Shown here piece by piece: positions 1,516-31,434 of a stretch of DNA of 32,000 bases (its first letter is position 1; each line of letters starts with the position of its first letter). Position numbers and translations under genes: made by a program. The notes below the pieces were generated by a model. That model had not been told where the DNA came from. It saw only the letters and a program-made list of their open reading frames with translations, and made no database searches. The stretch comes from Phycisphaera mikurensis NBRC 102666 (GTDB lineage: Bacteria; Planctomycetota; Phycisphaerae; Phycisphaerales; Phycisphaeraceae). Where the stretch lies: contig NC_017080.1 in NCBI RefSeq assembly GCF_000284115.1, positions 1,200,001-1,232,000 of the forward strand. The letters run 5' to 3'.

Positions 1516-1621
1516 CATCAGGCCGCAACACCGCAGGGGGCGTTGCTTCTTCGAGACGGTTTCTGTACGGTCCTCCTGCCGGGTCGCCCGACCCGCTTCT
1601 CGCTCCTTCCGGAGGCTCCCT

Positions 1622-2855: not shown

Positions 2856-4595
2856 ATGCACGACGGATACGACTTCGAGGCGAGCGGCAACTTGCGGCTC
2901 TGGAAGGCGGAGGGTGACTCCGCGGGTCGCTCGTTGGAGCACTACATCCAACCCGCTGAGGAGTACTCCCTTCAAGACCTTGGACTTGAAGAGGCCGGTT
3001 CCACGGTGAAGTTGTACTTGGAGGCGCTCGGGAACACCTCGTCTTGGTGGTTCGGTCCCAACAACGACAGCACGTGGCAGTGGAACAACCCGACCTCGCC
3101 GCAGGCGATCAGCGTCCATGCCGAGCATGAGGATCTTCGGACTCAGATCGGTGACAGCGTCCTGGTGAAACCCATGCTGGTGGATCTGCGGATCGACAGC
3201 GACAACGACGGGACGCTGTCTCTGCGGGATGAAGCACTCGAACAAGCAGAGCCGGGCATCGCGCCCGGTGCATGGTGGGTCATCAACAACGACGACTCAG
3301 ATTCCGACCTCTGGGTCCCGGACTACGCCGACGGTTACGGACTCGCCGCCGCGAAGGGCACCGCCGTCAACGCCGAGGCCGACCAAGTTTCCAACGAGGA
3401 CGAGTTTTACAAGATCAGCACCGACTTCACGAGATACGCGGGCAACGATGCAGAGCGCCTGAAGGTCCGCTTTAACTACGATGCAAACGATCCGATCGCT
3501 GGTGTGCAATTCGATGGCACGCAAGGCTACCGGATCGTTGACGGCGGGCTAATCCGCATCTGGACCACGGACGCTGCGGATCCAGGCCGCGACGGACGGA
3601 AGCTTCAGGACGGCGGAAGTGTCATCGAGAGCGGGTACGCGTACAGCGTCAGCGACCTCCCGGCCGCGGGCCTTTATCTCGAGAGTGTCGCCAGTTCCGG
3701 CTCCCTCGCGGACCTCGACGTGCTGGTGGAGTACCTGCTGGACGGCGTCGTCTTTGCGTCGGACCGCGTCGCAGGCACGAGCGTGGCTTCCAAAGCAGGA
3801 TTCACCACCCAGGCGTTGCAGCGGGCACGCATCAACCCCGACACCTGGGCGCCGCTGGCAGGCTTCCCGTTCAACCAAAACACGGTGCAAGCGGTCTACG
3901 ACTACTACCGCGACACCTACCTTGCCAACCAAGACGACTTCGTCTGGCTGGGCATGGCTCGGATGGCGGGAGGTGCGGTGTGGGACGGGCTCATTACAGG
4001 CGAGCAGGCAATCACCCTCCTTCGTGCGGCGCTTGCCAACCCGCTACAGACTTGGCAGGATCGGCTCGGAAACCTCTATGCACTAGAGATAGCAGAACGG
4101 CAGCAAGTCATGTTCGTCGAGATGCAGAAGGCGATCTTCGAAGATCTCGCATGGCAGCATGAACTTTACGCTGATGCTGGATACGCTGCGTTCGAGATCT
4201 TGAGGACTCATACGCCGAAGGATGTACCTTCCGACGTAGATACCGTATGGAAGCAGATCGATGCGGGTGATGTAGTCAGGGGTAATTTCGCACTGGTCCC
4301 TCGCGAGCAGAACTACATCCTGCAACCTTACTGGGATCAGTTCACGGCCGCCTTTGGCATGCAAGGCGTCGTCATCGGGCAGGGAACAAGGTCTCCGCTG
4401 CCGAACGGGCTCCCATTTGCGTCAACACCGGGGCTCGGCCTCTTCCCGAATGTCGCGTGGTGGCCAGACCGTGAACGGTGGATCGAGCTCGACATGTGGC
4501 CGAAATGGTTGGACTACATCAAACGGGAGCGGGCTGATCTCGTCAAAGCTGGCCTCGGAACGCAGTTAGGGCCGGCGTTCGTCAGCCCAATCTGA
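2856..4595 (+). CDS. Hypothetical large cargo protein (579 aa), Asp-rich DxDxDG-type motif, no signal peptide; function unknown
   Basis: Long ORF with protein-like composition and lower GC than the flanks (line 4081-4140 is 31/60 G+C). ATG at 2856 coincides with the onset of the GC drop. Contains LRIDSDNDGTLSL (DxDxDG-like Ca-binding loop) and VINNDDSDSDLWVPDYADGYG. The C-terminal region FVWLGMARMAGGAVWDGL...IFEDLAWQHELY is not recognised by me. The start (2802 or 2856) is uncertain. Confidence 0.7.
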   Translation: MHDGYDFEASGNLRLWKAEGDSAGRSLEHYIQPAEEYSLQDLGLEEAGSTVKLYLEALGNTSSWWFGPNNDSTWQWNNPTSPQAISVHAEHEDLRTQIGDSVLVKPMLVDLRIDSDNDGTLSLRDEALEQAEPGIAPGAWWVINNDDSDSDLWVPDYADGYGLAAAKGTAVNAEADQVSNEDEFYKISTDFTRYAGNDAERLKVRFNYDANDPIAGVQFDGTQGYRIVDGGLIRIWTTDAADPGRDGRKLQDGGSVIESGYAYSVSDLPAAGLYLESVASSGSLADLDVLVEYLLDGVVFASDRVAGTSVASKAGFTTQALQRARINPDTWAPLAGFPFNQNTVQAVYDYYRDTYLANQDDFVWLGMARMAGGAVWDGLITGEQAITLLRAALANPLQTWQDRLGNLYALEIAERQQVMFVEMQKAIFEDLAWQHELYADAGYAAFEILRTHTPKDVPSDVDTVWKQIDAGDVVRGNFALVPREQNYILQPYWDQFTAAFGMQGVVIGQGTRSPLPNGLPFASTPGLGLFPNVAWWPDRERWIELDMWPKWLDYIKRERADLVKAGLGTQLGPAFVSPI

Positions 4596-4635: not shown

Positions 4636-5232
4636 ATGATCTGCGACTTGACCTCTTCGGTGTTCTCCCTCACGTTTGCCTTCGTCATCGCGACAGCAAC
4701 CGGCTGCGGGAAGATGGAGAAACCTCCCGTTGAGATTGTTGTTCGGACGCTGGAGGATCGGTGGCTGGATGCAAGCCCACCGTTCCGGACCCTTGAGTGG
4801 ACTGGGTTTACAGTCAATTCAAGCCACGAGGCGGGTATAGTAACGATTGGTCCTCCGGATATGACAGCACCCGTGGCCCGATATGCCTATCGAACAGTTT
4901 ACAAGAAGGAGCGATGGTCGCCCGAGAGCCTCGGCTACTACCTCTTCGCGGGTCGGGATGTCATGGAAGCACCGGAGGTCTCTGAACTCGCACTCAGCCT
5001 CATCCGAGCGACGGGCCGGACGGTCAGCGAGCGAGAGGCCACGGCATTAGAAGAACTCGTCACCGGGATCGCATACCGAGAGATCAGCGACGGCTCGGCG
5101 AGCCTCTCGATCTACAAAGACCTGGACACACCCAACGGGATCTCGCTCGACGTCTCCAGGCGCCCGCGGGGCAAGCCCGAGCTGACCCTCGATCTCTACC
5201 TGAGGATCTCGGACCCCGACCCGCTGTGGTGA
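4636..5232 (+). CDS. Hypothetical small exported (lipoprotein-like) cargo protein
   Basis: ATG at 4636 preceded by GAGGA (4620-4624). N-terminus MICDLTSSVFSLTFAFVIATATGCGK has a hydrophobic h-region ending in Cys (non-canonical lipobox ATGC). Low GC like the upstream gene (line 4621-4680 is 31/60 G+C). Confidence 0.7.
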   Translation: MICDLTSSVFSLTFAFVIATATGCGKMEKPPVEIVVRTLEDRWLDASPPFRTLEWTGFTVNSSHEAGIVTIGPPDMTAPVARYAYRTVYKKERWSPESLGYYLFAGRDVMEAPEVSELALSLIRATGRTVSEREATALEELVTGIAYREISDGSASLSIYKDLDTPNGISLDVSRRPRGKPELTLDLYLRISDPDPLW

Positions 5233-5450: not shown

Positions 5451-5536
5451 GAACATGGGGTCAAGCCCCTTGCAGAGGTGCTATGGTGCCGTCGCCGAGT
5501 TGCCTCCCGCTCTCCCGCTCCTCCCACACCGCTCCC

Positions 5537-6622
5537 ATGGCCCGCTCTCTCCGCCACCAGATCCTGCCTGACGCCACCTGCGTCGTCCATGTTGTGTCGA
5601 AGATCTCGCGGTCGCTTCACTTGCTGGTGCCCGATGAGGATCGTGCCGGCGCCGGTGCCGTTGGCGACGCGGCCGAGCACCCCGACCTCCGCAAGGAGCT
5701 GCTGCTGCAGCGGCTGGAGACGCTGGCGGAGCAGACCTCGATCTCGGTATGCGGGTTCGCGGTGATGGACAACCACGTCCACCTGATCCTGCGGCGGGAC
5801 AAGGAGGAGGCCGCGGCGTGGTCAGCGGCGGAGGTGGTGGGGCGGTGGCTCGCGTTGCACCCCAAGCGGAATCGGGCGCGGCAGCCGGTGGAGACGCCGG
5901 AGGAGGACCTGGCGGCGATGGTGGCGGACGCGGGCCTGGTGGAGGCGCTGCGTGGAAAGCTGTCGAGCGTCTCGCAGTTCATGAAGGACCTCAAGCAGCG
6001 GACCGCGGAGGCGGTGAACAAGTTGGAAGGCCGCGGCGGGCGGCTCTGGGACGGGACGTTCAAGAGCAAGCTGATCGAGGACCAGGAGCAGCTGGTGGCG
6101 ACGATGGTGTACGTGGACTTGAACCCCTTCGCGGCGGGGGTGTGCGAGACGCCCGAAGAGGGCCGCCACACCTCGCTGGCGGGGCGGCTGGGGCGGGACG
6201 AGCCGGCGGGGGAGGTGAGCAAGCCCGCAGGATCCGCGGACCGCGACCGGGAGGAGGCCTCGGAGGCCGGCGGTCCGCGGGTTGGTCTGCGGTTGCCACG
6301 GCGGAGGTCCAGCGGGGCCTGGCTGCGGCCGCTGGACGAGTCGGCCCAGCGGGCGCGGAAGCGTGGGCAACGGCGGCACCCGCGAGGGCGGGCGGGGCTG
6401 AAAGCGGAGGCCGCGGGAACGGTGAGCCCGGGGCTGTCGCTGCAGATCTACCTGCGGATTCTCGACGCGGTCAGCCGCAAGCTGCGGGCGGGCAAGAAAC
6501 GCCTTGCGGCGGGCACGGCCAGCGTCTTCGAGCGGCTGAACCTGGACGCCGACGCGGTGGTCGGGCGGGTGCTGGCGATGGCGCAGCGGGACGGGCTGGC
6601 GGTGGCGGGCCGGGGCAGCTGA
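5537..6622 (+). CDS. HUH/Y1 single-strand DNA transposase-like protein (IS200/IS605 TnpA / RayT-like), paralog 2
   Basis: HUH motif in FAVMDNHVHLIL; LWDGTFKSKLI; MVYVDLNPFAAGV. Collinear with paralog 1 across the N-terminal ~220 aa, and C-terminal LQIYLRILDAVSRKLRAGK parallels LRRYLRLVDAVSRLLRAGK. ATG 5537 is preferred over ATG 5483 by paralog alignment. TGA at 6620-6622. Confidence 0.8.
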   Translation: MARSLRHQILPDATCVVHVVSKISRSLHLLVPDEDRAGAGAVGDAAEHPDLRKELLLQRLETLAEQTSISVCGFAVMDNHVHLILRRDKEEAAAWSAAEVVGRWLALHPKRNRARQPVETPEEDLAAMVADAGLVEALRGKLSSVSQFMKDLKQRTAEAVNKLEGRGGRLWDGTFKSKLIEDQEQLVATMVYVDLNPFAAGVCETPEEGRHTSLAGRLGRDEPAGEVSKPAGSADRDREEASEAGGPRVGLRLPRRRSSGAWLRPLDESAQRARKRGQRRHPRGRAGLKAEAAGTVSPGLSLQIYLRILDAVSRKLRAGKKRLAAGTASVFERLNLDADAVVGRVLAMAQRDGLAVAGRGS

Positions 6623-9144: not shown

Positions 9145-10191
9145 CTAGCGCTTCGGCGACTGCCGAAGATCCGCTGCGTCCTCCGCCTTGCTGGACGCCG
9201 CCCGTGAGGCTTCCGCCGCTTCGGCGTTGCGCTTCCACATCGGCAGCTTGATGCGGATGAGCGCGGTGCCGGCGGTCGCGGCGAGGCGATCGGCTCGGGT
9301 CCAGCCGGCGACCTCGGCCGGATCCAGCCCGGCGGCGTGCGGCCGGGGCGCGAAGTCCAGCGGGACGGGCAGCGGGTGGCGGGTGCCGATGGCGTTGAAG
9401 GGGCACACGTCCTGGCAGACGTCGCAGCCGGCGAGCCAGCCGTGGGTGTCCGGGGCCGCGCCCGGCGGATCGACCGACCGCCGCTCGATGGTCAGGTAGC
9501 TGATGCACCTCCGCGGGTCGATCGCGTGGCCGCCCGCATCGATCGCCCCGGTCGGGCAGGCGTCGATGCACCGCGTGCAGTTCGCGCAGCGGTCGGTCGG
9601 CTCGGCGAGCGGGCCGGGGAAGCCGCGGGCGGCGGAGGTCGGCAGCTCCAGGGTTGTGAGCAGCGCGCCCAGCAGCACGAAGGAGCCGTGGCGGGGGTGG
9701 ATCAGCAGCGAGTTCTTGCCCCGCCAGCCCAGGCCGGCGGCCTCGGCGTAGCGACGCTCGTCCAGCGGCGCGGTGTCGACGCAGGCGCGGAAGGCGGCGT
9801 CGGGGAAGGCCGCGGCGAGGCCGTCGCCGAGGCGGTGGAGCTTCTTCTTGAGCACGCGGTGGTAGTCGCGGCCCCAGGCGTAGCGGGCGATCCTGCCGCG
9901 GACCGAGCCGTTCCGGGCCGCAACCTCGGGTCGGTCCGCGGATCCGCCGGCGGGTTGGGTGTTCCCGTAGCTGTCGGCGACGATCACGACCGACCTCGCC
10001 CCCGGCAGCACCGCCTCGACGCCCAGCCGGGCCTCGGCGGAGTCGGCGAGCCAGCCCATCTCGCCGGCCCGGCCCGCCGCGAACCAGGCGCGGGAGCGGG
10101 CGGCCTCCTCCGCGGGGGCGGGCGCGGCGTCGGCCACGCCCCAGAGGCCGAAGCCGATCTTCGCCGCGAGCGCGTCGAGGGTTTCGATCAC
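9145..10191 (-). CDS. queG: Epoxyqueuosine reductase (tRNA queuosine biosynthesis)
   Basis: RIARYAWGRDYHRVLKKKL plus two ferredoxin-type clusters, CANCTRCIDACPTGAI and CDVCQDVCPFN. GTG start at 10191 in a GTGA overlap with the stop (10188-10190) of the upstream membrane-protein gene. The longer track ORF (to 10458) overlaps that gene. Confidence 0.85.
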   Translation of the reverse strand: MIETLDALAAKIGFGLWGVADAAPAPAEEAARSRAWFAAGRAGEMGWLADSAEARLGVEAVLPGARSVVIVADSYGNTQPAGGSADRPEVAARNGSVRGRIARYAWGRDYHRVLKKKLHRLGDGLAAAFPDAAFRACVDTAPLDERRYAEAAGLGWRGKNSLLIHPRHGSFVLLGALLTTLELPTSAARGFPGPLAEPTDRCANCTRCIDACPTGAIDAGGHAIDPRRCISYLTIERRSVDPPGAAPDTHGWLAGCDVCQDVCPFNAIGTRHPLPVPLDFAPRPHAAGLDPAEVAGWTRADRLAATAGTALIRIKLPMWKRNAEAAEASRAASSKAEDAADLRQSPKR

Positions 10192-10922
10192 GCGGCGTCC
10201 TCCGGCTCCGGGGCCGCCAGCAACCCGAGCATCAGGCACCAGAAGGCAAGCACGATGTTCTGCATCGGCAGCTGCAGCGGGAGCGGCAGCAGGTAGATGA
10301 CGCACACCGCGGGGATCCACACCGCCCAGCACGAGCACAGCAGCGGGAAGACTTCGCGGCGGTACCAGCCCCGGCCGGCGTGCCGCCGCCGGAAGCGGCT
10401 CCACGAGAAGCCCGCGTCCTTGAAGCCGTAGACGGCCACCGTCTCGGGCATCGCCCACAGCGGGCAGTACACGAACATGTCCAGGAAGACCTTGCCGGCG
10501 ACGATCGCCGGGCCGCGGCCGTCGCCGAGCAGGCCGTCGAGCCCGCGGTAGAGCAGGTCGACCTGCAGCCCGACCACCGCCCAGAACAGCAGCAGGTACA
10601 GGAAGGCCCCGGGCGACTCGCTCGGCGCCGACGGCCGCAGCCGCTGCACGGCCGCCGGCAGCACCGCCCCGGCGAGCGTGGTCGTGAGCGCCGCGAAGCC
10701 CAGCGCCACCGGCAGCGGCTGCTCGGCCCGCCAGCCGGCGAGCCGCTGCAACGCCGCCCGCATCGGCGGCCAGAGCTCGTACCCCAGCAGCACCGCGATG
10801 GCGAAGGCCGTCAACGCGAGCCCGGGGCCGAGGTTGGCTCGGGCGGCGGCGACCAAGCCGCTCCGGCGCTCGGGCGCACCCAACCGCTCGCCCCCCGCGG
10901 CCTCGGCGGCCGCCTCGCTCAC
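10188..10922 (-). CDS. Integral membrane protein (possibly Mpv17/PMP22-like; family assignment tentative)
   Basis: C-terminal part of track ORF 10188..12536. Several hydrophobic helices (LALTAFAIAVLLGY, FLYLLLFWAVVGL, LLCSCWAVWIPAVCVIYLL, IVLAFWCLMLGLLA). GTG at 10922 forms a GTGA overlap with the stop of the upstream gene (10919-10921). Confidence 0.6.
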   Translation of the reverse strand: MSEAAAEAAGGERLGAPERRSGLVAAARANLGPGLALTAFAIAVLLGYELWPPMRAALQRLAGWRAEQPLPVALGFAALTTTLAGAVLPAAVQRLRPSAPSESPGAFLYLLLFWAVVGLQVDLLYRGLDGLLGDGRGPAIVAGKVFLDMFVYCPLWAMPETVAVYGFKDAGFSWSRFRRRHAGRGWYRREVFPLLCSCWAVWIPAVCVIYLLPLPLQLPMQNIVLAFWCLMLGLLAAPEPEDAA

Positions 10923-15734: not shown

Positions 15735-16427
15735 TCACCCGGCCGGAAAACGCTCCGCCAGCCCGGCCCGCAGCGTCGCCGCGACGCCGCTCTCGCTCGC
15801 CGTGGCATCGATCAGGAGGTGGCCCGCGGGGTCGGCCTCCGCCTGCGCCAGGAAGCCCGCACGCACCCGCTCCTGGTAGCCGGCGTCGCGGCTCTCCACC
15901 CGGTCCAGCAGCGGGTTCAGGCGTGACGACGCGGTCACCGGGTCGACGTCGAAGATCACGACCAGGTCGGGTCGGCAGCCGCCGAGCGCCACCTCGCCCA
16001 CGCCGCGGATCTCCGCGAGCGGGAGCCCGCCGGCGGTGCCCTGGTACGCCAGCGTCGACGAGAGGAAGCGGTCGGCCAGCACCAGGTGGCCCGCGGCCAG
16101 CGCCGGCCGGATCCGCTGGGCGACCAGCTGGGCCCGCGACGCCATGAACAGCAGCATCTCCGCCCGCGTGTCCATCGCCCCGCAGCGCTCGTCGGGGTAG
16201 TTGAGCACCAGGTTCCGCACGCGTTCTCCCACCTCCGTCCCGCCCGGCTCGCGCACGGTCGTCACGAAGAGCCCGTCCTTCTCCGCCGCCGACTGGAACC
16301 GCCGCAGCTGCGTGCTCTTGCCCGCCCCGTCGGGCCCGTCGAACACGAGGAAGCGGCCCGCCAGCGGGCGCGACCAGCCCGGAGCGGCCGGCGGCGAGCG
16401 GGTGGTGGAGGTCGCGGCCTGCGGCAT
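15735..16427 (-). CDS. tmk: Thymidylate kinase
   Basis: P-loop FLVFDGPDGAGKSTQ, REPGGT, and the LID-region context LADRFLSSTLAYQG. ATG at 16427 (a TTG at 16460 is also possible). Confidence 0.88.
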   Translation of the reverse strand: MPQAATSTTRSPPAAPGWSRPLAGRFLVFDGPDGAGKSTQLRRFQSAAEKDGLFVTTVREPGGTEVGERVRNLVLNYPDERCGAMDTRAEMLLFMASRAQLVAQRIRPALAAGHLVLADRFLSSTLAYQGTAGGLPLAEIRGVGEVALGGCRPDLVVIFDVDPVTASSRLNPLLDRVESRDAGYQERVRAGFLAQAEADPAGHLLIDATASESGVAATLRAGLAERFPAG

Positions 16428-16475
16428 CCCGGCGAGGGTAAAGGCGCAGGGCAGCGGCAAGCCGCTACGCGGCGG

Positions 16476-16674
16476 GAAGAGACGAAGAGACGGAGAGACG
16501 AAGAGACGAAGAGACGGAGACAGGCAGGGAGGAAAAGGGGGCCGCGGTCGGATCTGTCCGTCTTCGTCTCTTCGTCTCTTGCTCGCACCCCATCGGCCCG
16601 CGGATGTCTGCGGCGCGATCCCGACGCCGCGGCCCCCGAATCGGCTCGCCTCGCGCGTCTTCGTCTCTTCGTCC
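16476..16674. repeat. 8-bp-period repeat element forming a long imperfect palindrome (GAAGAGAC units) in a divergent intergenic region
   Basis: Left arm gaagagac gaagagac ggagagac gaagagac gaagagac ggagac (16476-16521). Spacer with caggcaggg (16521-16529). Right arm gtccgtcttc gtctcttc gtctcttg (16556-16581), complementary to the left units (15 of 16 nt for 16500-16515 vs 16566-16581). A further partial copy gtcttcgtctcttcgtcc lies at 16657-16674. Confidence 0.85.
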
Positions 16675-16692
16675 CCGCTCTACCTTCCGCCC

Positions 16693-17331
16693 GTGCCCCA
16701 AGCCCCCGAGCCCCCGAACTATCTCACCCCCTACGTCGACGCGGAGAAACGCCTCGGCCCCGGCTTCGAGGCCACGCTGTGGGCACGCCGGGAGACGCAG
16801 GAGATCCGCTTCCGCGTCTTCGCCGAGCAGCTGGACCTGAGCGGCAAGACGATCCTCGACGCCGGCTGCGGGCCCGGCGACTTCGCGGCGTGGCTGCAGA
16901 CGCACGGCATCGGCTACGGCCGCTACGTCGGCATCGACGGCGTGGAGCCCGTCGTGGAGCACGCCAACGCCCGCGGCCTTCCCGACGCGGAGTTCCGCGC
17001 CGGCGACCTGGTGACCGACGCGGCGCTGCTGGCCACCGGCTCGCCCGAGGTCACGATCATCTCCGGCACGCTCAACACGATGGACCTCGCCACCGCGACC
17101 CGCGTGCTGGAAAACGCCTGGGCCGGCACCTCCTCCGTGCTCGCCTTCAACTTCCTCCCCGACACCGCCGGCCCCGGCGCCACCCCGCAGCTGCACCCCG
17201 CCGTCCGCCTGCCCACGATGCACCTGCTCGCCTGGGCTCTCGCCCAGACGTGGGACGTCCTCTACCGCCAGGACTACTTCGCCCACGGCCACGACGGCAC
17301 CGTCGTGATGCGCAAGCACGCCAGGGCGTAG
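16693..17331 (+). CDS. Class I SAM-dependent methyltransferase
   Basis: Motif I ILDAGCGPGDF, then YVGIDGVEPVVEHA. GTG start at 16693 (VPQAPEPPNYLTPYVD...). The upstream part of track ORF 16201.. runs through repeats and the tmk antisense strand. Confidence 0.7.
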   Translation: MPQAPEPPNYLTPYVDAEKRLGPGFEATLWARRETQEIRFRVFAEQLDLSGKTILDAGCGPGDFAAWLQTHGIGYGRYVGIDGVEPVVEHANARGLPDAEFRAGDLVTDAALLATGSPEVTIISGTLNTMDLATATRVLENAWAGTSSVLAFNFLPDTAGPGATPQLHPAVRLPTMHLLAWALAQTWDVLYRQDYFAHGHDGTVVMRKHARA

Positions 17332-25856: not shown

Positions 25857-27032
25857 CTAGTCACGCCCGACGCGCAGCGACGCCGCGGCGACGTGGCCGC
25901 CGAAGCCGGCGGCGAAGACGGCGTGCAGGCCGTCGGGCAGGTCGCGGGTCTCGGGGGAGAGGTCCAGGGGGGTGTCCAGCGGCTGCTCGATCCACGGCAT
26001 CGGCGGGCGGCGGTTGGCTCTCGCGCACAGCGCGGCGAGCACGAGGGAGCCGAGGCCGGCGGCGCCGAGGCCGTGGCCGATGGCGCCCTTGGCGGCGTAG
26101 ACGGCGGGCGCGTCTGCGGCGGCGGAGGCCAGCGCCGCCAGTTCCATCGGGTCGTGCGTGGGCGTCCCCGGGGCGTGCGGGTGCAGGCAGGCGACGCGTT
26201 CGGTCCGGATCACCTCCCCGGCGACGCGGCGCAGGGCGGGCATGCCGGGGGCGGGCCGGAGCAGGTCGAAGCCGTCGGCGGCGACGGCGGTGGCGACGAG
26301 CTCGATGCCGGGGCGGTCGTCGGCCGTCAGCACGACCGCGGCGGCGGACTCGGCGAGCACGAAGCCGCGGCGGGCGGCGGACAGCGGCCGGCCGGCGTAG
26401 TCGTCCAGCGGGGCGAGCACGCCGAGCCTCGCGTGGGCGTGGACGAACAGCGGGAGCAACGCGGCCTCGGCGGTGACGACCAGCGCGGCGTCGAGGCGGC
26501 CGGAGGCCACGCCGCGGGCGGCGGCGTCGAGCGCGACCAGCGAGGCGGCGCAGGCCGCGACGCGGTGGTCGGCGACGGCCACGCCCAGCCGCCGGGCCAG
26601 CCCGCGGGCGAAGAGCGCGTGCGGGCCCATCGCCACCGCCTCGGCGTCGGGCCCGCGGACCGGCGGCGCGTCGGGCCCGCCGAGCAGGCGGTCCGCGGCG
26701 GCGGCGTGGGCGGCGGCGGCGCCCTTGCTCGTGCCCAGGTAAACCGCCAGGCCTTTGGCCTCCACGCCCGCCTCGAGGCAGGCCTCGCGGGCGGCGGTCT
26801 CGGCGAGGTCGATCGCCGGATCCTCGCGGGCGAAGCGGGCGTTGGCGACGCCGCCGATCGCCAGCACGCGCGGCATCGGCTCGGTGTCGGGCTCGAGCTT
26901 CGCGAGCCGGTCGGCCAGCGTCCGGCCCGCGAGCAGGGCCGAGAAGTTCGGCCACGCCCCCGAGGCGAGCGGCGTGACGAGCCCGAGGCCGGCGAGGCGG
27001 ACGCGGCGCGGAAGGGGGGAGGCGTCGTTCAT
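25857..27032 (-). CDS. Beta-ketoacyl synthase (KAS I/II, FabB/FabF-like condensing enzyme)
   Basis: ATG at 27032 (MNDASPLPRRVRLAGLGLVTPL). Active-site Cys context HRVAACAASLVAL, first His in ACLHPHAPGTPTHD, second His in KGAIGHGLGAAG (Cys-His-His triad retained). About 391 aa. TAG at 25857-25859. Confidence 0.8.
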   Translation of the reverse strand: MNDASPLPRRVRLAGLGLVTPLASGAWPNFSALLAGRTLADRLAKLEPDTEPMPRVLAIGGVANARFAREDPAIDLAETAAREACLEAGVEAKGLAVYLGTSKGAAAAHAAAADRLLGGPDAPPVRGPDAEAVAMGPHALFARGLARRLGVAVADHRVAACAASLVALDAAARGVASGRLDAALVVTAEAALLPLFVHAHARLGVLAPLDDYAGRPLSAARRGFVLAESAAAVVLTADDRPGIELVATAVAADGFDLLRPAPGMPALRRVAGEVIRTERVACLHPHAPGTPTHDPMELAALASAAADAPAVYAAKGAIGHGLGAAGLGSLVLAALCARANRRPPMPWIEQPLDTPLDLSPETRDLPDGLHAVFAAGFGGHVAAASLRVGRD

Positions 27033-27171: not shown

Positions 27172-30100
27172 ATGACCGCGACGCAACGAACGATGACGCC
27201 GCCCACGGGAGCCGATCGGGCGGACGCCCCCGGGCGGATGCTCCGCCTGTACCGCTGGATGGCCCTGGCCAGGGCCGCCGAGAAGCGTCAGCGCGAGCTG
27301 GTCGCCGGCGGCGAGGCGCACTTCATGATGCCCTACCGCGGGCACGAGGGCGTGGCGGCGCTGCAGCTGTTCTTGGGCGAGGACGACTGGCTGCACGTCC
27401 ACTACCGCGACCAGGCCCTGCTGCTGGCCCGCGGCCTGCCGGTGTCGCGCGTCTTCGACTCGCTGCTCGCCAACGCCAACGACACGGCCGCGGGCGGGAT
27501 GATGGGCGGCTTCCACGCCGACGCGGGGCTGCACATCCTCCCGATGGTCGTGCCGACCGGCAACCACGCCCTCCAGGCGGTGGGCGTCGCGCAGGAGTTG
27601 CGGCGGTCCGGCCGGCCCGGGCCAGCGGGCCGTCCACCGCTGGTCGCGTGCGGCTTCGGCGACGGCACCGCCCAGCAGGGCGAGGTGCTCGAGGCCATTG
27701 CCGAGGCCGTCCGCGACCGCCTCCCGATGCTGTTCTACTGCTCCGACAACGGCTACGCGATCAGCACGCCCACCGGCGGGAAGACCTTCTTCGACCTGCC
27801 GAGAGGGTCCGCGTCGGAGTTCCTCGGCAGGAAGATCCACCGCTTCGACGCCCGCGACGTCGGCCCCGAGCTCGGCCGCCTCGGCGACACGATCGCGCAC
27901 GCCCGCACCGCCGACGGTCCGACGCTGATGGTGCTGCGCTGCGAGCGGCTGACCAACCACACCAACGCCGACGACCAGCGGACCTACCGCGAGGCCGAGG
28001 GCCTCGCCGCCAGCGAGCGTGACCACGACCCCGTGGTGAACCTGCGGCGGTGCCTGGCGGACGAGGTCGACGCCACCGAGCTGGACGCCATCGACGCCGA
28101 TGCCGAGGCGGCGGTGGACGAGGCCGCCGAGACCGCCCGCCGCGGCGCCGAGCCGGCCGGCGTCGCCGCCGTTTCCAAGCCCTTCCCCCCGAACCTCTCG
28201 ACCGGCGCCGAGCACCCCCCGGCCCAGCCGGGCGACGTGTTGATGATCGAGGCGATGCGGAGAGTGCTCGACGCCCGGCTCGCCGCCGACGGCCGCGTCG
28301 TGCTTCTCGGCGAGGACATCGCCGACCCCAAGGGCGACGTCTTCGGCGTGACGCGCGGGCTGTCCACCACCCACGGCGCCGACCGCGTCATCAACTCGGC
28401 CCTCAGCGAGTCGACCATCACCGGCACCGCCATCGGCCGCGCGATGGCCGGCGGCCGCCCGGTCGGCTTCGTCCAGTTCGCCGACTTCCTGCCCAACGGC
28501 CTCAACCAGATCCTCTCGGAGCTGGGCACGATCCGGTGGCGCAGCGGCGGGGCGTTCGAGTGCCCGGCGATCTTCATGGTCACCTGCGGCGGCTACAAGC
28601 CGGGCCTGGGACCCTTCCACGCCCAGACCTTCGAGGCCCTGCTCGCCGGCGTGCCCGGCGTGGACGTCTTCATGCCCTCGACCGCGGCCGACGCCGCGGG
28701 CCTGCTCAACGCCGCCTTCGAGAGCGGCCGGCCGACGGTCTTCCTCTACCCCAAGGCCTGCCTGAACGACCGCGGCAACGCCTGCGGGGGCGTGGTCGAG
28801 GAGCTGCTCGCCTCGCCGGGCACCGCCGCCCACCGCCGCCGCGGCGACGACCTCACGCTGGTCGCCTGGGGCAGCACCGCGTCGGTCGCCGAGGCCGTGG
28901 CCGACACGCTCGCCGAAGCGGGCCACGGGGTGGACCTGCTGGACCTCCGCACGATCACGCCGTGGGACCGCGCCGCCGTCGCGGCCTCGGCCGCCCGCAC
29001 CGGCCGCCTGCTCGTCGTGCATGAGGACAACCTGACCGCCGGCTTCGGCGGCGAGGTCGTCGCCGCGGTGTGCGAGGACGTGGACCGGCCGCTCTCGGTC
29101 AAGCGCGTCGCTCGGCCCGACGTGCCGGTTCCGCAGGCCTTCTCCGCCCAGCTGGAGGTGCTGCCCAGCTACCGCCGCGTGCTCGACGCCGCGGCGTCGC
29201 TGCTGGGCGTTGAGGCCGATTGGGCCGCGGCGACGAAAGCCGCCCCGGTCGTCGCCGGCGGTGAGTTCGTCGTCGAGGCCGAGGGCTCCAGCCCCGCCGA
29301 CGCCGCGGTGACCATCACGCAGTGGCTCGTCTCCGCGGGCGACCGCGTGAAGAAGGGCCAGAACATCGCCGACCTCGAGGCCGACAAGGCCGTCTTCGAG
29401 CTGGCCGCCCCCGCCGACGCCGAGGTCGCCGCGGTGCTGGTGGGCGAGGGCGAGGAGGTGCCGGTGGGCACGCCGATTCTGCGGCTCCGCCGGCTGGAGG
29501 AAGCGGGCGCCGCCGCCGCGGACGGCGACGGCTCCGGGCCCGTGAAGCGCACGGTCCGCGAGGACCGCACGCCGCCGAAGCTCTCGGCACCGGCTGCACC
29601 GCTCGCCGCGGACGCGGCGGCCGCAGCCGCTTCCGTCCGCGTCTACCTCTCGCCGATCCACACCGTCGAGGGCCGCAACCGGCTGGACAACTCCGACCTG
29701 GAGCGCCGCTTCCCCGGCCGCAGCGCCGAGGACATCGTCAAGCGGACCGGCATCGAGAGCCGGCCGATCGTCGGCCCCGGCCAGACGGCGCTTTCGATGG
29801 CCGTCGAGGCCGCCGCCGCCGCGCTCGCTGCCGAGGGGCTGGCGCTGGACGACCTCTCGGGCATCGTCTGCCACACCACCACGCCGCCCCTGAACACGCC
29901 GTCGATGGCGTGCATGGTGCTCAACGGCCTCGACGAGCAGCGGCGGGCCGCCGACCCCAAGCTCGCCCCCGCCGAGGCCGTCGTCTACGACGTCAACGCC
30001 GCGTGCTCGGGCTGGCTCTACGCCCTCGACGCCGCCTTCAACACCGTCCGCGACAACCCGCGGTCCGCCGTGCTGGTCGTCACCACCGAGGCGCTGTCCC

Positions 30101-30657
30101 GCGTCGTCGACCCCAGCGACTTCGACACCGCCATCCTCTTCGGCGACGCCGCGACCGCCACCGTCGTGCGCGGCTCGGCGGTCGCGGATGCCGCGGGGGG
30201 AGCCGCCGGCTTGCCCGCCGGCTCGCTGGTCCTCCACAAGCCCGTGCTCTCGGGCAAGGCCGACCCGGGCATGGTGCTCACCGTCGGCTTCGAGGGCGGC
30301 GGCCACGTGCAGATGGACGGCAAGCGCGTCTTCGTCGAGGGCGTGCGGGCGATGACCGAGATGGCCCAGCGGGCCTTCACCGCCGCCGGCCGCCCGCTCG
30401 AAGACGTCGACTGGCTCGTGCCCCACCAGGCCAACCGCCGCATCTTCGACGCCGTCGCCAAGAAGCTCAACGTGCCGGCCGAGAAGGTGATCGACCAGAT
30501 CGCCCACTGCGGCAACACCTCCTCCAGCAGCATCCCCCTCGCCATCGCCCGGGCCCTCCGCGATGGCAGCGCCACACTCGAGCCCGGCCAGACCGTTGGC
30601 GCCGTCGCCTTCGGCGGCGGCTTCACCTTCGGGGCGGCGATCCTCGAAGTGGTCTGA
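27172..30657 (+). CDS. Multidomain fusion: 2-oxoacid dehydrogenase E1 alpha (TPP-binding) + E1 beta + lipoyl-attachment domain + FabH-type 3-oxoacyl-ACP synthase III
   Basis: Uninterrupted frame of 1161 codons from ATG 27172. E1-alpha: MLRLYRWMALARAAE and TPP motif GDG...SDNGYAIS (nt 27658-27750). E1-beta from about 28237: LLGEDIADPKGDVFGVTRGL, SESTITGTAIGRAMAGGRP, PFHAQTFEAL. Lipoyl domain about 29260-29490 with DLEADKAVFEL (Lys codon 29386-29388). KAS III about 29635-30654 with NAACSGWLYAL (Cys 30004-30006), VPHQANRRI (His 30424-30426), CGNTSSSSIPLA (Asn 30514-30516). The start could alternatively be the MLRLYRW Met. Confidence 0.85.
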   Translation: MTATQRTMTPPTGADRADAPGRMLRLYRWMALARAAEKRQRELVAGGEAHFMMPYRGHEGVAALQLFLGEDDWLHVHYRDQALLLARGLPVSRVFDSLLANANDTAAGGMMGGFHADAGLHILPMVVPTGNHALQAVGVAQELRRSGRPGPAGRPPLVACGFGDGTAQQGEVLEAIAEAVRDRLPMLFYCSDNGYAISTPTGGKTFFDLPRGSASEFLGRKIHRFDARDVGPELGRLGDTIAHARTADGPTLMVLRCERLTNHTNADDQRTYREAEGLAASERDHDPVVNLRRCLADEVDATELDAIDADAEAAVDEAAETARRGAEPAGVAAVSKPFPPNLSTGAEHPPAQPGDVLMIEAMRRVLDARLAADGRVVLLGEDIADPKGDVFGVTRGLSTTHGADRVINSALSESTITGTAIGRAMAGGRPVGFVQFADFLPNGLNQILSELGTIRWRSGGAFECPAIFMVTCGGYKPGLGPFHAQTFEALLAGVPGVDVFMPSTAADAAGLLNAAFESGRPTVFLYPKACLNDRGNACGGVVEELLASPGTAAHRRRGDDLTLVAWGSTASVAEAVADTLAEAGHGVDLLDLRTITPWDRAAVAASAARTGRLLVVHEDNLTAGFGGEVVAAVCEDVDRPLSVKRVARPDVPVPQAFSAQLEVLPSYRRVLDAAASLLGVEADWAAATKAAPVVAGGEFVVEAEGSSPADAAVTITQWLVSAGDRVKKGQNIADLEADKAVFELAAPADAEVAAVLVGEGEEVPVGTPILRLRRLEEAGAAAADGDGSGPVKRTVREDRTPPKLSAPAAPLAADAAAAAASVRVYLSPIHTVEGRNRLDNSDLERRFPGRSAEDIVKRTGIESRPIVGPGQTALSMAVEAAAAALAAEGLALDDLSGIVCHTTTPPLNTPSMACMVLNGLDEQRRAADPKLAPAEAVVYDVNAACSGWLYALDAAFNTVRDNPRSAVLVVTTEALSRVVDPSDFDTAILFGDAATATVVRGSAVADAAGGAAGLPAGSLVLHKPVLSGKADPGMVLTVGFEGGGHVQMDGKRVFVEGVRAMTEMAQRAFTAAGRPLEDVDWLVPHQANRRIFDAVAKKLNVPAEKVIDQIAHCGNTSSSSIPLAIARALRDGSATLEPGQTVGAVAFGGGFTFGAAILEVV

Positions 30658-30792: not shown

Positions 30793-31434
30793 TCAACCGA
30801 GGGTTCCGCCTGGATCGTCGGACGCGGCGAGTTCGCAGAAGTGCGCCAACCGCGCCGGCAGGTCCTTGTCGCGGTGGAAGCGTCGAGTCCTGATCAGGCG
30901 GAGGAGGTTTTGGACCGTCTCCAGGTCGGAGGCCGTCGCCACGCGGATCAACATCAGGAGGTCGATGCGGTCCTGCAGCCGACGCTCGCTCTCGGAGAGC
31001 AGCTTCAACGCGATGAGGTGCGGGACGCTCGCCGTTGGCACCGCGAGGCCGGGGGCCACCCGCACCGGCGTCGCCGCGTCCACGCACTCCGCTTCGATCC
31101 CGCTGGAAGCGAAGAGGACGTCGACCATCGGCACCAGCCCTTCGTCCACCTGCCCGTCCCGCGGAGTCGGGGGCCGGAGGCGGAGGGTGCTCAAGCGATC
31201 CACCGCCGTCTGCTTCAGGCTGCCTCGGAGCGCGTAGCCGCCGCTGAGGAAGCACCGGGCGACGGCCTCCGCCTCCGCATCGTCGGCCACCGCGATCGCG
31301 AGGTCGACGTCTCGGGTGAAGCGGATGGCCGTTCGGTTCGCCACCGCGATCCCGCCCACCGGGCAGGAACACGCGTCCGCGAGCGTCAGCACCTCGATGG
31401 CGCGTCTCGCACCGGCGTGGAGGCTGGCTTCCAC
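30793..31434 (-). CDS. Pol-beta-superfamily nucleotidyltransferase-fold protein (AbiEii/DUF1814-like features; assignment tentative)
   Basis: hG[GS]-x(n)-DxD signature in CPVGGIAVANRTAIRFTRDVDLAIAV, further acidic MVDVLF, C-terminal HLIALKLLSESERRLQDRIDLLMLI. GTG start at 31434, or GTG at 31392 which overlaps the upstream ORF stop (GTGCTGA). Confidence 0.5.
   Translation of the reverse strand: MEASLHAGARRAIEVLTLADACSCPVGGIAVANRTAIRFTRDVDLAIAVADDAEAEAVARCFLSGGYALRGSLKQTAVDRLSTLRLRPPTPRDGQVDEGLVPMVDVLFASSGIEAECVDAATPVRVAPGLAVPTASVPHLIALKLLSESERRLQDRIDLLMLIRVATASDLETVQNLLRLIRTRRFHRDKDLPARLAHFCELAASDDPGGTLG

What the first reader, a model, noticed from the sequence alone, without database searches (positions are those of the whole stretch)
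27172..30657. One 1161-aa polypeptide joins 2-oxoacid dehydrogenase E1-alpha, E1-beta, a lipoyl domain and a FabH-type KAS III, with no E2 catalytic core
All four modules sit in a single uninterrupted frame with their diagnostic residues intact:
- TPP motif GDG-x27-N (nt 27658-27750).
- E1-beta pyrimidine-binding and C-terminal regions (about 28237-29200).
- Lipoylatable Lys in DLEADKAVFEL (29386-29388).
- KAS III Cys/His/Asn triad (30004, 30424, 30514).
In canonical complexes the lipoyl domain belongs to E2, whose acyltransferase core (DHRxxDG motif) passes the acyl group to CoA, and FabH then uses the acyl-CoA. Here no DHR-type E2 core is present between the lipoyl domain and the KAS III.
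This suggests (inference) that the acyl-dihydrolipoyl arm made by the fused E1 hands the acyl group directly to the KAS III cysteine. That would be a CoA-independent channel from a 2-oxoacid (for example a branched-chain one) to a fatty-acid or polyketide starter unit. I cannot tell from the sequence whether this architecture has already been characterised. No E3 or ACP gene is visible in the window.
Basis: partly seen in the sequence, partly recalled or inferred. Interest (0 to 1): 0.85.

Follow-up and report, generated by a model that had tools for sequence, protein, structure and literature searches.

The report
E1–lipoyl–KAS III fusion lacking E2
One 1161-residue protein joins a 2-oxoacid decarboxylase (E1 alpha+beta), a lipoyl swinging arm and a FabH-type condensing enzyme with no E2 core. 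It belongs to a large family with no published study that I could find, and probably feeds 2-oxoacid-derived starter units into fatty-acid synthesis without an acyl-CoA intermediate.

Summary
One uninterrupted ORF (27172-30657, +) gives six Pfam domains in the predicted order: E1_dh, Transket_pyr, Transketolase_C, Biotin_lipoyl, ACP_syn_III, ACP_syn_III_C. There is no E2 catalytic core and no E3-binding domain.

It is not an assembly artefact. An independent assembly is identical, and at least 592 species genomes encode the same architecture. These include Planctomycetota, Verrucomicrobiota, Spirochaetota, the Rhizobium tropici group and Thermoleophilia.

All catalytic residues are invariant in 197 family members.

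Three findings favour direct transfer from the lipoyl arm to the KAS cysteine:
- The residues of canonical FabH that clamp the CoA adenine (Trp32, Arg151) are never present in the fusion. The ACP-docking Arg249 is kept.
- In Fibrobacterota the system is split into an E1 alpha-beta gene and a lipoyl-KAS III gene. The KAS III therefore occupies the place of the E2 core.
- ACP-like genes are adjacent in two lineages.

The substrate (pyruvate or a branched-chain 2-oxoacid) is open, and so is whether this is the cell's only FabH. No paper or solved structure was found. Direct transfer is favoured but not proven.

The parts
27172..30657 (+). Whole gene, 1161 aa plus stop (alternative ATG at 27193 gives 1154 aa)
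27250..28149 (+). E1-alpha module (E1_dh, aa 27-326)
   Evidence: closest solved chain is T. thermophilus branched-chain-type E1 alpha, 1UM9_A, 101 bits
27658..27750 (+). ThDP motif G163-D-G ... N193
   Evidence: G163 and N193 are invariant in 118 and in 79 family members
27958..27960 (+). E1-alpha catalytic His263. It aligns with the second His of human BCKDH 'GHHSTSDD' and sits in the loop of G. stearothermophilus H271 alpha
   Evidence: invariant 118/118 and 79/79; alignment; role in reductive acylation from PMC2663715
28243..28761 (+). E1-beta pyrimidine-binding module (Transket_pyr, aa 358-530)
   Evidence: 1UM9_B 206 bits
28618..28620 (+). E1-beta His483, equivalent to G. stearothermophilus H128 beta, the proposed proton donor for reductive acylation of lipoate
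   Evidence: invariant 118/118 and 79/79; alignment; role from PMC2663715
28819..29154 (+). E1-beta C-terminal module (Transketolase_C, aa 550-661)
29203..29262 (+). Flexible linker 1 (about aa 678-697). The gene boundary of the natural split forms falls here
   Evidence: pLDDT 63-75 with a dip below 50 at aa 692-695; family length 26-40 aa; split pair aligns to aa 25-679 and 709-1159
29263..29493 (+). Lipoyl domain (aa 698-774; Pfam hit 713-772)
29386..29388 (+). Lipoylatable Lys739 in E-A-D-K-A
   Evidence: invariant 118/118 and 79/79; the DKA context is the lipoyl type, not the biotinyl type
29494..29634 (+). Linker 2 (aa 775-821), rich in Ala, Pro and Arg and mostly disordered
   Evidence: pLDDT 44-75; family length 49-109 aa
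29545..29577 (+). Conserved motif K792-R-x-x-R-E-D-x-G-x-P802 inside linker 2, function unknown
   Evidence: no Pfam hit
29635..30654 (+). KAS III (FabH-type) domain, aa 822-1161
   Evidence: Pfam; NCBIfam PRK09352 256 bits against a cut-off of 249; Foldseek TM 0.90-0.94 normalised to FabH structures
29731..29733 (+). Asp854 at the position of E. coli FabH Trp32 (CoA adenine stacking)
   Evidence: D100/E14 with no W in 118; no W in 79; canonical stand-alone KAS III has W in 56/58; role from PMC4606726
30004..30006 (+). KAS III nucleophile Cys945
   Evidence: invariant
30121..30123 (+). Phe984 at the position of E. coli FabH Arg151 (other face of the adenine clamp)
   Evidence: F113/Y4/L1 with no R in 118; no R in 79; canonical has R in 50/58
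30424..30426 (+). KAS III His1085
   Evidence: invariant
30439..30441 (+). Arg1090 at the position of E. coli FabH Arg249 (ACP docking; that role is from my own knowledge)
   Evidence: R112/K5 of 118; R78 of 79
30514..30516 (+). KAS III Asn1115
   Evidence: invariant
25857..27032 (-). Divergently transcribed FabF-like ketosynthase (391 aa). It is a conserved neighbour within Phycisphaerae only, so it is a possible partner but not part of the core system
   Evidence: Pfam and NCBIfam; same arrangement in L001, L002, L006, L008, L010, L011; 100% identical to a Phycisphaera mikurensis protein

Best explanation
The protein is a self-contained enzyme that converts a 2-oxoacid plus malonyl-ACP into a 3-ketoacyl-ACP. 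A KAS III domain has taken the place of the E2 acyltransferase core of a 2-oxoacid dehydrogenase.

Proposed cycle:
1. The fused E1 alpha-beta, probably a homodimer that mimics the alpha2-beta2 tetramer, decarboxylates a 2-oxoacid on ThDP.
2. It reductively acylates the lipoyl group on Lys739 of the tethered lipoyl domain.
3. That domain swings on its two flexible linkers. The S-acyl-dihydrolipoyl-lysine arm enters the tunnel that binds the pantetheine arm of acyl-CoA in ordinary FabH.
4. The acyl group moves by transthioesterification to Cys945.
5. His1085 and Asn1115 decarboxylate malonyl-ACP, which docks at Arg1090, and a Claisen condensation gives the 3-ketoacyl-ACP that starts type II fatty-acid synthesis.
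6. A free dihydrolipoamide dehydrogenase (E3) encoded elsewhere re-oxidises the dihydrolipoyl arm.

Shown here: the domain order; the absence of an E2 core and a PSBD; invariance of all catalytic residues; loss of the CoA-adenine clamp; the split forms; the taxonomic spread.

Inferred: steps 3 and 4 (direct transfer), the ACP acceptor, the E3 partner, the dimeric state, and the substrate. The substrate is pyruvate or a branched-chain 2-oxoacid and may differ between lineages.
For: - Six domains in order, with no E2 core or E3-binding domain.
- ThDP motif, E1-alpha His263, E1-beta His483, lipoyl Lys739 and the Cys945/His1085/Asn1115 triad are invariant in 118 database homologues and in 79 genome-derived homologues from six or more phyla. 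Both E1 histidines are the ones assigned to reductive acylation of lipoate (PMC2663715), so the E1 is built to load a lipoyl arm.
- In E. coli FabH the CoA adenine stacks between Trp32 and Arg151 and H-bonds Thr28 (PMC4606726). Among 58 stand-alone KAS III representatives these residues are W in 56, R in 50 and T in 52. In the fusion the same positions are D/E, F and R/Y/K; they are never W or R in 197 sequences. The tunnel residue Asn247 and the ACP-docking Arg249 are kept (N117/118, R112/118).
- A natural split form exists. A 661-aa E1 alpha-beta gene overlaps by 4 nt the start of a 442-aa lipoyl-KAS III gene (L087-L089). The pair is collinear with window aa 25-679 and 709-1159. The lipoyl-KAS III protein forms at least 120 clusters, mainly in Fibrobacterota. 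Its triad, lipoyl Lys and Arg249 are invariant, and its CoA-contact positions are again non-canonical: W32 to Y in 120/120, R36 to V in 119/120.
- An 81-aa PP-binding gene lies 6 nt downstream of another lipoyl-KAS III gene. A PP-binding gene lies directly upstream of the Tautonia sociabilis fusion.
- The lipoyl domain sits between two disordered linkers of conserved minimum length, as in the swinging arms of E2 proteins.
- No conserved operon partner exists. The gene sits in housekeeping contexts: after rpsL-rpsG-fusA, next to aconitase, next to ptsP. That fits an enzyme needing only generic partners.
Against: - There is no biochemical evidence of any kind. Transfer from a lipoyl thioester to a ketosynthase cysteine has no precedent known to me.
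- No E3 gene lies nearby and there is no E3-docking domain, so re-oxidation of the arm is assumed.
- I could not test whether genomes with the fusion also hold an E2 core or a stand-alone FabH. Rhizobium certainly has a normal FabH (my knowledge), so at least there the enzyme is accessory.
- Arg36, a pantetheine/phosphate contact, is kept in most fusions (R99/118). Some CoA affinity therefore cannot be excluded.
- In the split family Arg151 persists in 53/120.
- The coordinates of the AlphaFold model were not available to me, so the reach of the arm to either active site was not measured.
Confidence: 0.6

Rival explanations
1. Proximity only. The fused E1 and lipoyl domain are served by a separate E2 core encoded elsewhere, as corynebacterial OdhA borrows the lipoyl domains of another E2. 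That E2 makes acyl-CoA, which the KAS III domain then uses like an ordinary FabH.
For: Use of lipoyl domains in trans has precedent (OdhA, my knowledge; its structure 8P5V appears). Arg36 is mostly retained. I could not test whether the genomes lack an E2 core.
Against: The CoA-adenine clamp (Trp32/Arg151) and Thr28 are absent in all 197 fusions but present in 86-97% of stand-alone KAS III. No E2 gene lies near the gene in any of the neighbourhoods examined. The split form keeps the lipoyl domain on the KAS III, not on the E1.
Confidence: 0.12
2. The KAS III domain acts as a non-condensing acyltransferase, a true functional surrogate of E2. It takes the acyl group from the lipoyl arm and passes it to CoA or holo-ACP without a Claisen condensation.
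For: The first half-reaction of FabH is a reversible transthioesterification (established knowledge). KAS III-like acyltransferases exist in polyketide pathways (my knowledge).
Against: The decarboxylation and condensation residues His1085 and Asn1115 and the GGGF oxyanion loop are invariant in 197 sequences. The KAS III-like acyltransferases known to me have altered triads. NCBIfam places the domain just above the KAS III subfamily cut-off.
Confidence: 0.12
3. The chemistry is the same but the role is accessory. The enzyme primes a minor or specialised lipid or polyketide rather than bulk fatty-acid synthesis, alongside a normal FabH.
For: - In the Rhizobium tropici group the gene lies between an OlsE-type FA_hydroxylase gene and an OlsC-like/CrcB/ClC block (olsC-sycA adjacency in PMC5936775).
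- Phycisphaerae keep a dedicated divergent ketosynthase next to it.
- Rhizobia have a canonical FabH (my knowledge).
Against: The gene stands alone in housekeeping neighbourhoods in most lineages. It is spread over at least 592 species genomes. The KAS domain is closest to true FabH enzymes.
Confidence: 0.3
4. Assembly or annotation artefact: separate E1-alpha, E1-beta, lipoyl-protein and fabH genes were merged by frameshift errors.
For: None beyond the general risk in DNA of 75% G+C.
Against: An independent assembly is identical. Hundreds of full-length orthologues at 42-87% identity, from genomes of very different G+C content, share the same order. GC3 is 0.96 in one frame along the whole ORF. 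AlphaFold gives mean pLDDT 90.6.
Confidence: 0.01

Closest known systems
Branched-chain 2-oxoacid and pyruvate dehydrogenase complexes with heterotetrameric E1 (T. thermophilus 1UM9, P. putida 1QS0, human BCKDH 1DTW, G. stearothermophilus PDH 1W85)
   Same: ThDP-dependent E1 alpha and beta folds; the GDG...N motif; both histidines used for reductive acylation; a lipoyl domain with a DKA lysine on flexible linkers.
   Different: Alpha and beta are fused. The lipoyl domain is attached to E1-beta instead of to an E2. There is no E2 catalytic core, no peripheral subunit-binding domain and no E3 in the locus. A KAS III follows the lipoyl domain.
FabH / KAS III priming fatty-acid synthesis from acyl-CoA, including the BKD-plus-FabH route to branched-chain fatty acids in Bacillus, Staphylococcus and Listeria (my knowledge)
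   Same: Cys-His-Asn triad, oxyanion loop, ACP-docking arginine and overall fold (TM 0.90-0.94 normalised to FabH structures). The overall logic of 2-oxoacid to primer to 3-ketoacyl-ACP is also the same.
   Different: The CoA-adenine clamp residues Trp32, Arg151 and Thr28 are replaced in every member. GDGAGA becomes GDAATA. There is a 14-residue insertion before the Cys strand. The domain is covalently tethered to its presumed acyl donor. It misses the TIGR00747 fabH cut-off (220 against 292 bits).
QncN/QncL/QncM of quinocarcin biosynthesis (recalled from Peng et al., PNAS 2012; not checked here)
   Same: A ThDP E1-like enzyme loads a two-carbon unit on a lipoyl arm, and the unit is delivered to a carrier protein of an assembly line rather than to CoA.
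   Different: In that system an E2-type acyltransferase domain does the transfer to ACP and no condensation is involved. Here a condensing enzyme is the acceptor and no E2 domain exists.
Corynebacterial and mycobacterial OdhA/KGD (E1o fused to an E2o core; structures 8P5V and 2YID appear)
   Same: It is a precedent for reshuffled modules of a 2-oxoacid dehydrogenase in one polypeptide. Its E1 part is the longest structural match to the model (TM 0.46-0.47 normalised to the query).
   Different: OdhA keeps the E2 core and lacks a lipoyl domain. This protein keeps the lipoyl domain and lacks the E2 core.
Two-gene form found here: an E1 alpha-beta gene followed by a lipoyl-KAS III gene in Fibrobacterota (Chitinispirillum alkaliphilum, Chitinivibrionales, Fibrobacter sp.)
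   Same: The same four modules in the same order, with the same invariant catalytic residues and a non-canonical CoA-contact signature.
   Different: It is split at linker 1. Identity to the window protein is only 28-30%. Position 32 is Tyr and the GDGAGA motif is kept. This form is also uncharacterised as far as I could find.

Membership tests
2-oxoacid dehydrogenase E1, heterotetrameric alpha/beta type | E1_dh, Transket_pyr and Transketolase_C domains above the Pfam gathering scores | tested here: met
   104.6, 87 and 92.8 bits against cut-offs of 22, 27 and 25.9
2-oxoacid dehydrogenase E1, heterotetrameric alpha/beta type | ThDP-binding GDG-x(26-28)-N motif | tested here: met
   G163-D-G ... 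N193; G163 and N193 invariant in 197 sequences
2-oxoacid dehydrogenase E1, heterotetrameric alpha/beta type | Active-site histidines needed for reductive acylation of lipoate (alpha His next to the regulatory Ser/Thr; beta His128 in G. stearothermophilus numbering) | tested here: met
   His263 and His483 are invariant; alignments; roles
2-oxoacid dehydrogenase E1, heterotetrameric alpha/beta type | Assignment to a substrate class (pyruvate or branched-chain) by a curated equivalog model | tested here: not met
   All NCBIfam E1 hits fall far below their cut-offs, e.g. PRK11892 210 against 454 and TIGR03181 150 against 411. PDB scores lean toward the branched-chain type
Lipoyl domain | Biotin_lipoyl fold with a lysine in a D-K-A (lipoyl, not M-K-M biotinyl) hairpin | tested here: met
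   52.5 bits against 22.1; E-A-D-K-A with K739 invariant
Lipoyl domain | Actual lipoylation of the lysine | not testable with these tools
   Needs mass spectrometry of the native or co-expressed protein
E2 dihydrolipoamide acyltransferase | 2-oxoacid_dh catalytic domain with the DHRxxDG motif | tested here: not met
   No Pfam hit; no DHRxxDG in any frame of the window
E2 dihydrolipoamide acyltransferase | Peripheral subunit (E3/E1)-binding domain | tested here: not met
   No E3_binding hit in the whole protein or in six family linkers at E<=10
FabH / KAS III | ACP_syn_III and ACP_syn_III_C domains with a Cys-His-Asn triad | tested here: met
   68.6 and 103.2 bits; Cys945, His1085 and Asn1115 invariant
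FabH / KAS III | Curated family score | tested here: inconclusive
   It passes the PRK09352 subfamily model narrowly (256 against 249) and fails TIGR00747 fabH (220 against 292)
FabH / KAS III | Acyl-CoA primer site: adenine stacked between Trp32 and Arg151, with an H-bond to Thr28 | tested here: not met
   The positions hold Asp854, Phe984 and Arg850. W and R are absent at the first two in 197 family members but present in 56/58 and 50/58 stand-alone KAS III
FabH / KAS III | ACP-docking arginine (E. coli Arg249) | tested here: met
   Arg1090; R112/K5 of 118 and R78 of 79
FabH / KAS III | Condensation of a primer with malonyl-ACP | not testable with these tools
   Needs an enzyme assay
Complete 2-oxoacid dehydrogenase complex (E1+E2+E3, acyl-CoA and NADH as products) | E2 and E3 components encoded with E1 or recruited by it | tested here: not met
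   No E2 or E3 gene in the window or in the neighbourhoods examined. Presence elsewhere in the genome was not tested

The most novel reading that the evidence does not exclude
A lipoyl swinging arm delivers its acyl group straight to a ketosynthase cysteine. A large set of bacteria would then start fatty-acid synthesis from a 2-oxoacid with no acyl-CoA intermediate. This set covers most PVC lineages, many Spirochaetaceae and, in the split form, Fibrobacterota. In many of them this enzyme would be the only FabH. That would add a third acyl-donor type (lipoyl, besides CoA and ACP) for ketosynthases. It would also give a new initiation route for type II fatty-acid synthesis that ties primer supply directly to pyruvate or branched-chain amino-acid metabolism.
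Probability: 0.45. Interest if true: 0.88.

Novelty: new variant of a known kind. Interest (0 to 1): 0.78.

Why it matters
Textbook initiation of bacterial fatty-acid synthesis needs an acyl-CoA primer. The known exceptions (FabY, malonyl-ACP decarboxylase routes) are few.

An E1-lipoyl-KAS III enzyme would commit a 2-oxoacid to lipid synthesis in one protein. It would bypass the CoA pool and the E2 core, and it would show that a lipoyl arm can serve a condensing enzyme.

The family is large: at least 592 species genomes carry the fused form, and at least 120 protein clusters exist for the split form. It covers ecologically important phyla whose lipid biosynthesis is little studied, so a single expression experiment could settle the question.

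It would also matter in three practical ways:
- for interpreting iso-fatty-acid biomarkers;
- for annotation, because these genes now carry names such as 'beta-ketoacyl-ACP synthase 3' or '2-oxoisovalerate dehydrogenase E1 component';
- for engineering CoA-independent starter-unit supply.

Tried and rejected
- **Literature.** One search failed on a term that was too short. Subscription journals are not covered, so an existing description cannot be excluded.
- **Solved structures.** No solved chain spans more than the E1 part or the KAS part, by sequence or by Foldseek on the AlphaFold model. The afdb50 library was unavailable.
- **Conserved operon partner (E2, E3, ACP, lipoate ligase).** All-against-all clustering of 1127 ORFs from 85 loci plus the window found only lineage-specific neighbours.
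- **Remnant E3-binding domain in linker 2.** The conserved KR..RED.G.P motif recalls the GRITKEDV end of a PSBD, but Pfam gives nothing even at E<=10. The idea was dropped and the motif is left unexplained.
- **Model geometry.** AlphaFold2 gave a confident model (pLDDT 90.6, pTM 0.70), but the coordinates are not exposed. I could not measure distances from Lys739 to the ThDP site or to Cys945.
- **Substrate from homology.** This was inconclusive.
- **Other checks.** Rojas-Jimenez 2005 on the R. tropici sycA-olsC region is not held in the library. The window has no Rfam or tRNA features.

Full report

Yes. GC3 in that frame is 0.96, typical of real genes in this roughly 73-75% G+C DNA.

Pfam finds six domains in the predicted order, all far above the curated cut-offs: E1_dh (aa 27-326), Transket_pyr (358-530), Transketolase_C (550-661), Biotin_lipoyl (713-772), ACP_syn_III (939-1002) and ACP_syn_III_C (1071-1159). 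It finds no 2-oxoacid_dh (E2 core) and no E3_binding domain. NCBIfam places the C-terminal third just above the KAS III subfamily cut-off (PRK09352, 256 against 249 bits). It is below the stricter fabH model (TIGR00747, 220 against 292), and no E1 model reaches its cut-off.

No DHRxxDG motif and no ACP-type serine motif occurs in any frame of the window. None of the other ORFs I scanned is an E2, E3 or ACP.

**2. Is it an artefact?**

No. The neighbouring ketosynthase is 100% identical to a Phycisphaera mikurensis protein on a 3.80-Mb contig, so the window is that genome or a near-identical one. An independent assembly of a public sequencing run (Logan SRR12223476, L090) is identical to the window from 25784 to the window end, and the same 1161-aa gene is called on it.

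A protein search returned more than 120 full-length proteins with the same six domains at 46-86% identity. Only the best 80 loci were returned, and their labels divide as follows:
- 26 Planctomycetota
- 22 Verrucomicrobiota, including Kiritimatiellia, Pontiella and Opitutaceae
- 13 Spirochaetota
- 11 Alphaproteobacteria (cultured R. leucaenae and R. lusitanum, several other Rhizobium strains, Devosia)
- 4 Actinomycetota (Thermoleophilia, Miltoncostaeaceae, and one doubtful MAG label)
- 1 Sumerlaeota
- 3 others

An exhaustive HMMER search with the lipoyl-KAS half found about 45 clusters (at 50% identity) of full-length fusions, down to 31% identity, before ordinary 320-aa FabH proteins begin.

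**3. Anatomy and conservation**

In an alignment of 118 full-length homologues the following are invariant: the ThDP motif (G163, N193), the E1-alpha His263, the E1-beta His483, the lipoyl Lys739 (E-A-D-K-A) and the KAS triad Cys945/His1085/Asn1115. The same holds for 79 genes taken from the genome loci of other phyla.

The two histidines align with the residues assigned to reductive acylation of lipoate in G. stearothermophilus E1p, H271 alpha and H128 beta (PMC2663715; alignments). The E1 is therefore built to load a lipoyl arm, not merely to decarboxylate.

AlphaFold2 with a 78-sequence alignment gives a confident model (mean pLDDT 90.6, pTM 0.70). Disorder is confined to the N-terminus and to the two linkers flanking the lipoyl domain. 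Across the family, linker 1 is 26-40 residues and linker 2 is 49-109 residues, rich in Ala, Arg, Val and Pro. This is the hallmark of a swinging lipoyl domain.

**4. Evidence on how the KAS III gets its primer**

(a) *The CoA-binding signature is lost.* In E. coli FabH the CoA adenine is stacked between Trp32 and Arg151 and H-bonds Thr28. The pantetheine is held by Arg36, Asn209 and Asn246 in the numbering of PMC4606726. I aligned the family to E. coli FabH. That sequence was recalled from memory and checked against the published residue numbers.
- The position of Trp32 is Asp or Glu (114/118), never Trp.
- The position of Arg151 is Phe (113/118), never Arg.
- The position of Thr28 is Arg, Tyr or Lys.
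- The GDGAGA motif has become an invariant GDAATA.
- Asn247, the oxyanion glycines and the ACP-docking Arg249 (R112/K5) are kept.
- The 79 genome-derived sequences show the same pattern: 0 Trp and 0 Arg at those positions.
- As a control, 58 stand-alone 300-360-aa KAS III representatives from the same search have Thr28 in 52, Trp32 in 56 and Arg151 in 50.

The nucleotide-binding half of the acyl-CoA site has thus been lost specifically in the lipoyl-linked enzymes. The tunnel, the triad and the ACP site are intact.

(b) *Natural gene fission.* In three metagenome contigs a 661-aa E1 alpha-beta gene overlaps by 4 nt the start of a 442-aa lipoyl-KAS III gene. The pair is collinear with window residues 25-679 and 709-1159, so the break lies in linker 1. 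This lipoyl-KAS III protein is itself a large family of at least 120 clusters at 56-63% identity, named by sources as Chitinispirillum alkaliphilum, Chitinivibrionales, Chitinispirillales and Fibrobacter sp.. Its triad, lipoyl lysine (ESAK[SA]) and Arg249 are invariant. Its CoA-contact positions are again non-canonical: Trp32 to Tyr in 120/120, Arg36 to Val in 119/120, Thr28 to Ile or Val. The lipoyl domain therefore travels with the KAS III just as it travels with the E2 core in normal complexes. The KAS III occupies the E2 position.

(c) *Links to ACP.* Another lipoyl-KAS III gene is followed 6 nt later by an 81-aa PP-binding gene. The Tautonia sociabilis fusion is preceded by a PP-binding gene.

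**5. Genomic context**

There is no universal neighbour.
- Phycisphaerae, including the window, keep a divergently transcribed, highly diverged FabF-like ketosynthase.
- In a Pirellulales contig the gene follows rpsL-rpsG-fusA.
- In Spirochaetaceae it is next to aconitase, and in Pontiella next to ptsP.
- In the Rhizobium tropici group it lies between an FA_hydroxylase (the superfamily of OlsE) gene and an Asp_Arg_Hydrox (OlsC-like)/CrcB/ClC block. This block resembles the published olsC-sycA locus (PMC5936775; PMC12971839).

Stand-alone placement in housekeeping surroundings fits an enzyme that needs only generic partners (malonyl-ACP, E3, the lipoylation machinery). The Rhizobium context hints at membrane-lipid function.

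**6. Most likely mechanism (confidence about 0.6)**

E1 decarboxylates a 2-oxoacid and reductively acylates lipoyl-Lys739. The domain swings, and the S-acyl-dihydrolipoyl arm enters the former pantetheine tunnel of the KAS III. The acyl group moves to Cys945. Malonyl-ACP is decarboxylated and condensed to give a 3-ketoacyl-ACP. A free E3 re-oxidises the arm.

The modules, their intact catalytic equipment, the missing E2, the lost adenine clamp and the split forms are shown. The transfer step itself, the ACP acceptor, the E3 partner and the oligomeric state are inferred.

**7. Substrate**

This is unresolved.
- By PDB similarity the E1 is nearer to branched-chain-type enzymes than to pyruvate-type ones. 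T. thermophilus 1UM9 gives alpha 101 and beta 206 bits, and human BCKDH gives 78 and 166. G. stearothermophilus PDH gives 60 and 157, and human PDH gives 56 and 112.
- Pontiella and Kiritimatiella, whose relatives carry the gene, have i-C12:0, i-C14:0, i-C16:0 and i-C18:0 as major acids (PMC7356697). That would fit 2-oxoisovalerate.
- From my memory of its species description, P. mikurensis has 14:0, 16:0 and 18:1 as major acids. That would call for an acetyl primer and therefore pyruvate, if this enzyme primes bulk synthesis there.
- The acyl-pocket residue at the position of E. coli Phe87 is Thr or Ser, which is not diagnostic.

**8. Rivals**

- A trans-acting E2 that makes acyl-CoA for the KAS domain (0.12) is disfavoured by the lost adenine clamp and by the split architecture.
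- A non-condensing acyltransferase role (0.12) is disfavoured by the invariant His/Asn pair.
- An accessory rather than primary role (0.3; compatible with the same chemistry) is certain for Rhizobium and open elsewhere.
- An artefact is excluded.

**9. Comparison with what is known, and novelty**

The protein works like a 2-oxoacid dehydrogenase complex up to the acyl-lipoyl stage and like FabH from the acyl-enzyme stage. It is not a member of the E2 family: core and PSBD were tested and not met. It is an atypical member of the KAS III family: fold and triad are met, the CoA site is not met, and the curated score is borderline.

Precedents for parts of the logic exist. From memory, the QncN/QncL/QncM system moves a lipoyl-borne unit to an ACP, but through an E2-type domain. 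OdhA fuses E1 to an E2 core without a lipoyl domain (its structures appear).

Ten full-text searches and two kinds of structure search found no description of an E1-lipoyl-KAS III enzyme (22, 23, 55). Databases hold the family only under automatic names.

I rate it a new variant of a known kind. The modules are known, while their wiring and the predicted lipoyl-to-ketosynthase transfer are not. A description in a journal outside the searchable library remains possible; I estimate this at 15-20%.

**10. Open items**

- The conserved K-R-x-x-R-E-D-x-G-x-P motif in linker 2 (nt 29545-29577) has no assigned role.
- The 14-residue insertion before the Cys945 strand is unexplained.
- Two questions decide how important the enzyme is, and the tools could not answer them here: whether the carrier genomes lack a normal FabH, and whether they lack a spare E2.

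Noticed in passing
window 953-2626 (+), 5483-6622 (+) and the stretch between them: Two paralogous genes with a weak IS200-like Y1 transposase signature flank a stretch of lower G+C (0.57-0.63 against 0.70-0.77 elsewhere). That stretch holds two ORFs (about 2900-4595 and 4636-5232, +) with no Pfam assignment. It may be a small inserted island.
   Followed up: no
window 25857-27032 (-): A highly diverged FabF-like ketosynthase (82 bits to the fabF model against a cut-off of 494) is transcribed divergently from the fusion gene. Its sequence shows an apparent Cys/His/His triad. It is 100% identical to a Phycisphaera mikurensis protein. The pairing is conserved in Phycisphaerae but not in other phyla.
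   Followed up: partly
L046, L050, L058, L063, L070, L073, L074 (Rhizobium tropici group), e.g. L074 8752-9744 and 13773-16817: The fusion gene sits between an FA_hydroxylase (OlsE superfamily) gene and an OlsC-like Asp_Arg_Hydrox / CrcB / ClC channel block that resembles the published olsC-sycA acid-tolerance locus. This hints at a link to ornithine-lipid or other membrane-lipid remodelling.
   Followed up: partly
L087 2662-5972, L088, L089; proteins P0214 and P0389-P0507: Fibrobacterota carry a two-gene version. An E1 alpha-beta gene overlaps by 4 nt a roughly 440-aa lipoyl-KAS III gene, and that protein forms a family of at least 120 clusters. It has its own non-canonical CoA-site signature: Tyr at the position of Trp32 and Val at the position of Arg36.
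   Followed up: yes
L086 18-1621: A 450-aa lipoyl-KAS III gene is followed 6 nt later by an 81-aa PP-binding (ACP-like) gene. Its KAS domain has HPGSKR in place of HQAN. The contig is too short to show what lies upstream.
   Followed up: partly
window 29545-29577 (aa 792-802): A conserved K-R-x-x-R-E-D-x-G-x-P motif lies inside the otherwise variable lipoyl-to-KAS linker. It is present across phyla and in partial sequences, and it has no Pfam match.
   Followed up: partly
window 30793-31434 (-) and 9145-10458 (-): An AbiEii-like nucleotidyltransferase toxin gene lies just downstream of the fusion gene. Further upstream is an ORF with two CxxCxxCxxxCP ferredoxin-type motifs, which from its sequence looks like an epoxyqueuosine reductase.
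   Followed up: no
window 15738-17328 and L001 6007-7493: The thymidylate kinase and methyltransferase gene pair lies upstream of the fusion locus both in the window and in Algisphaera agarilytica. This shows local synteny within Phycisphaerae.
   Followed up: no
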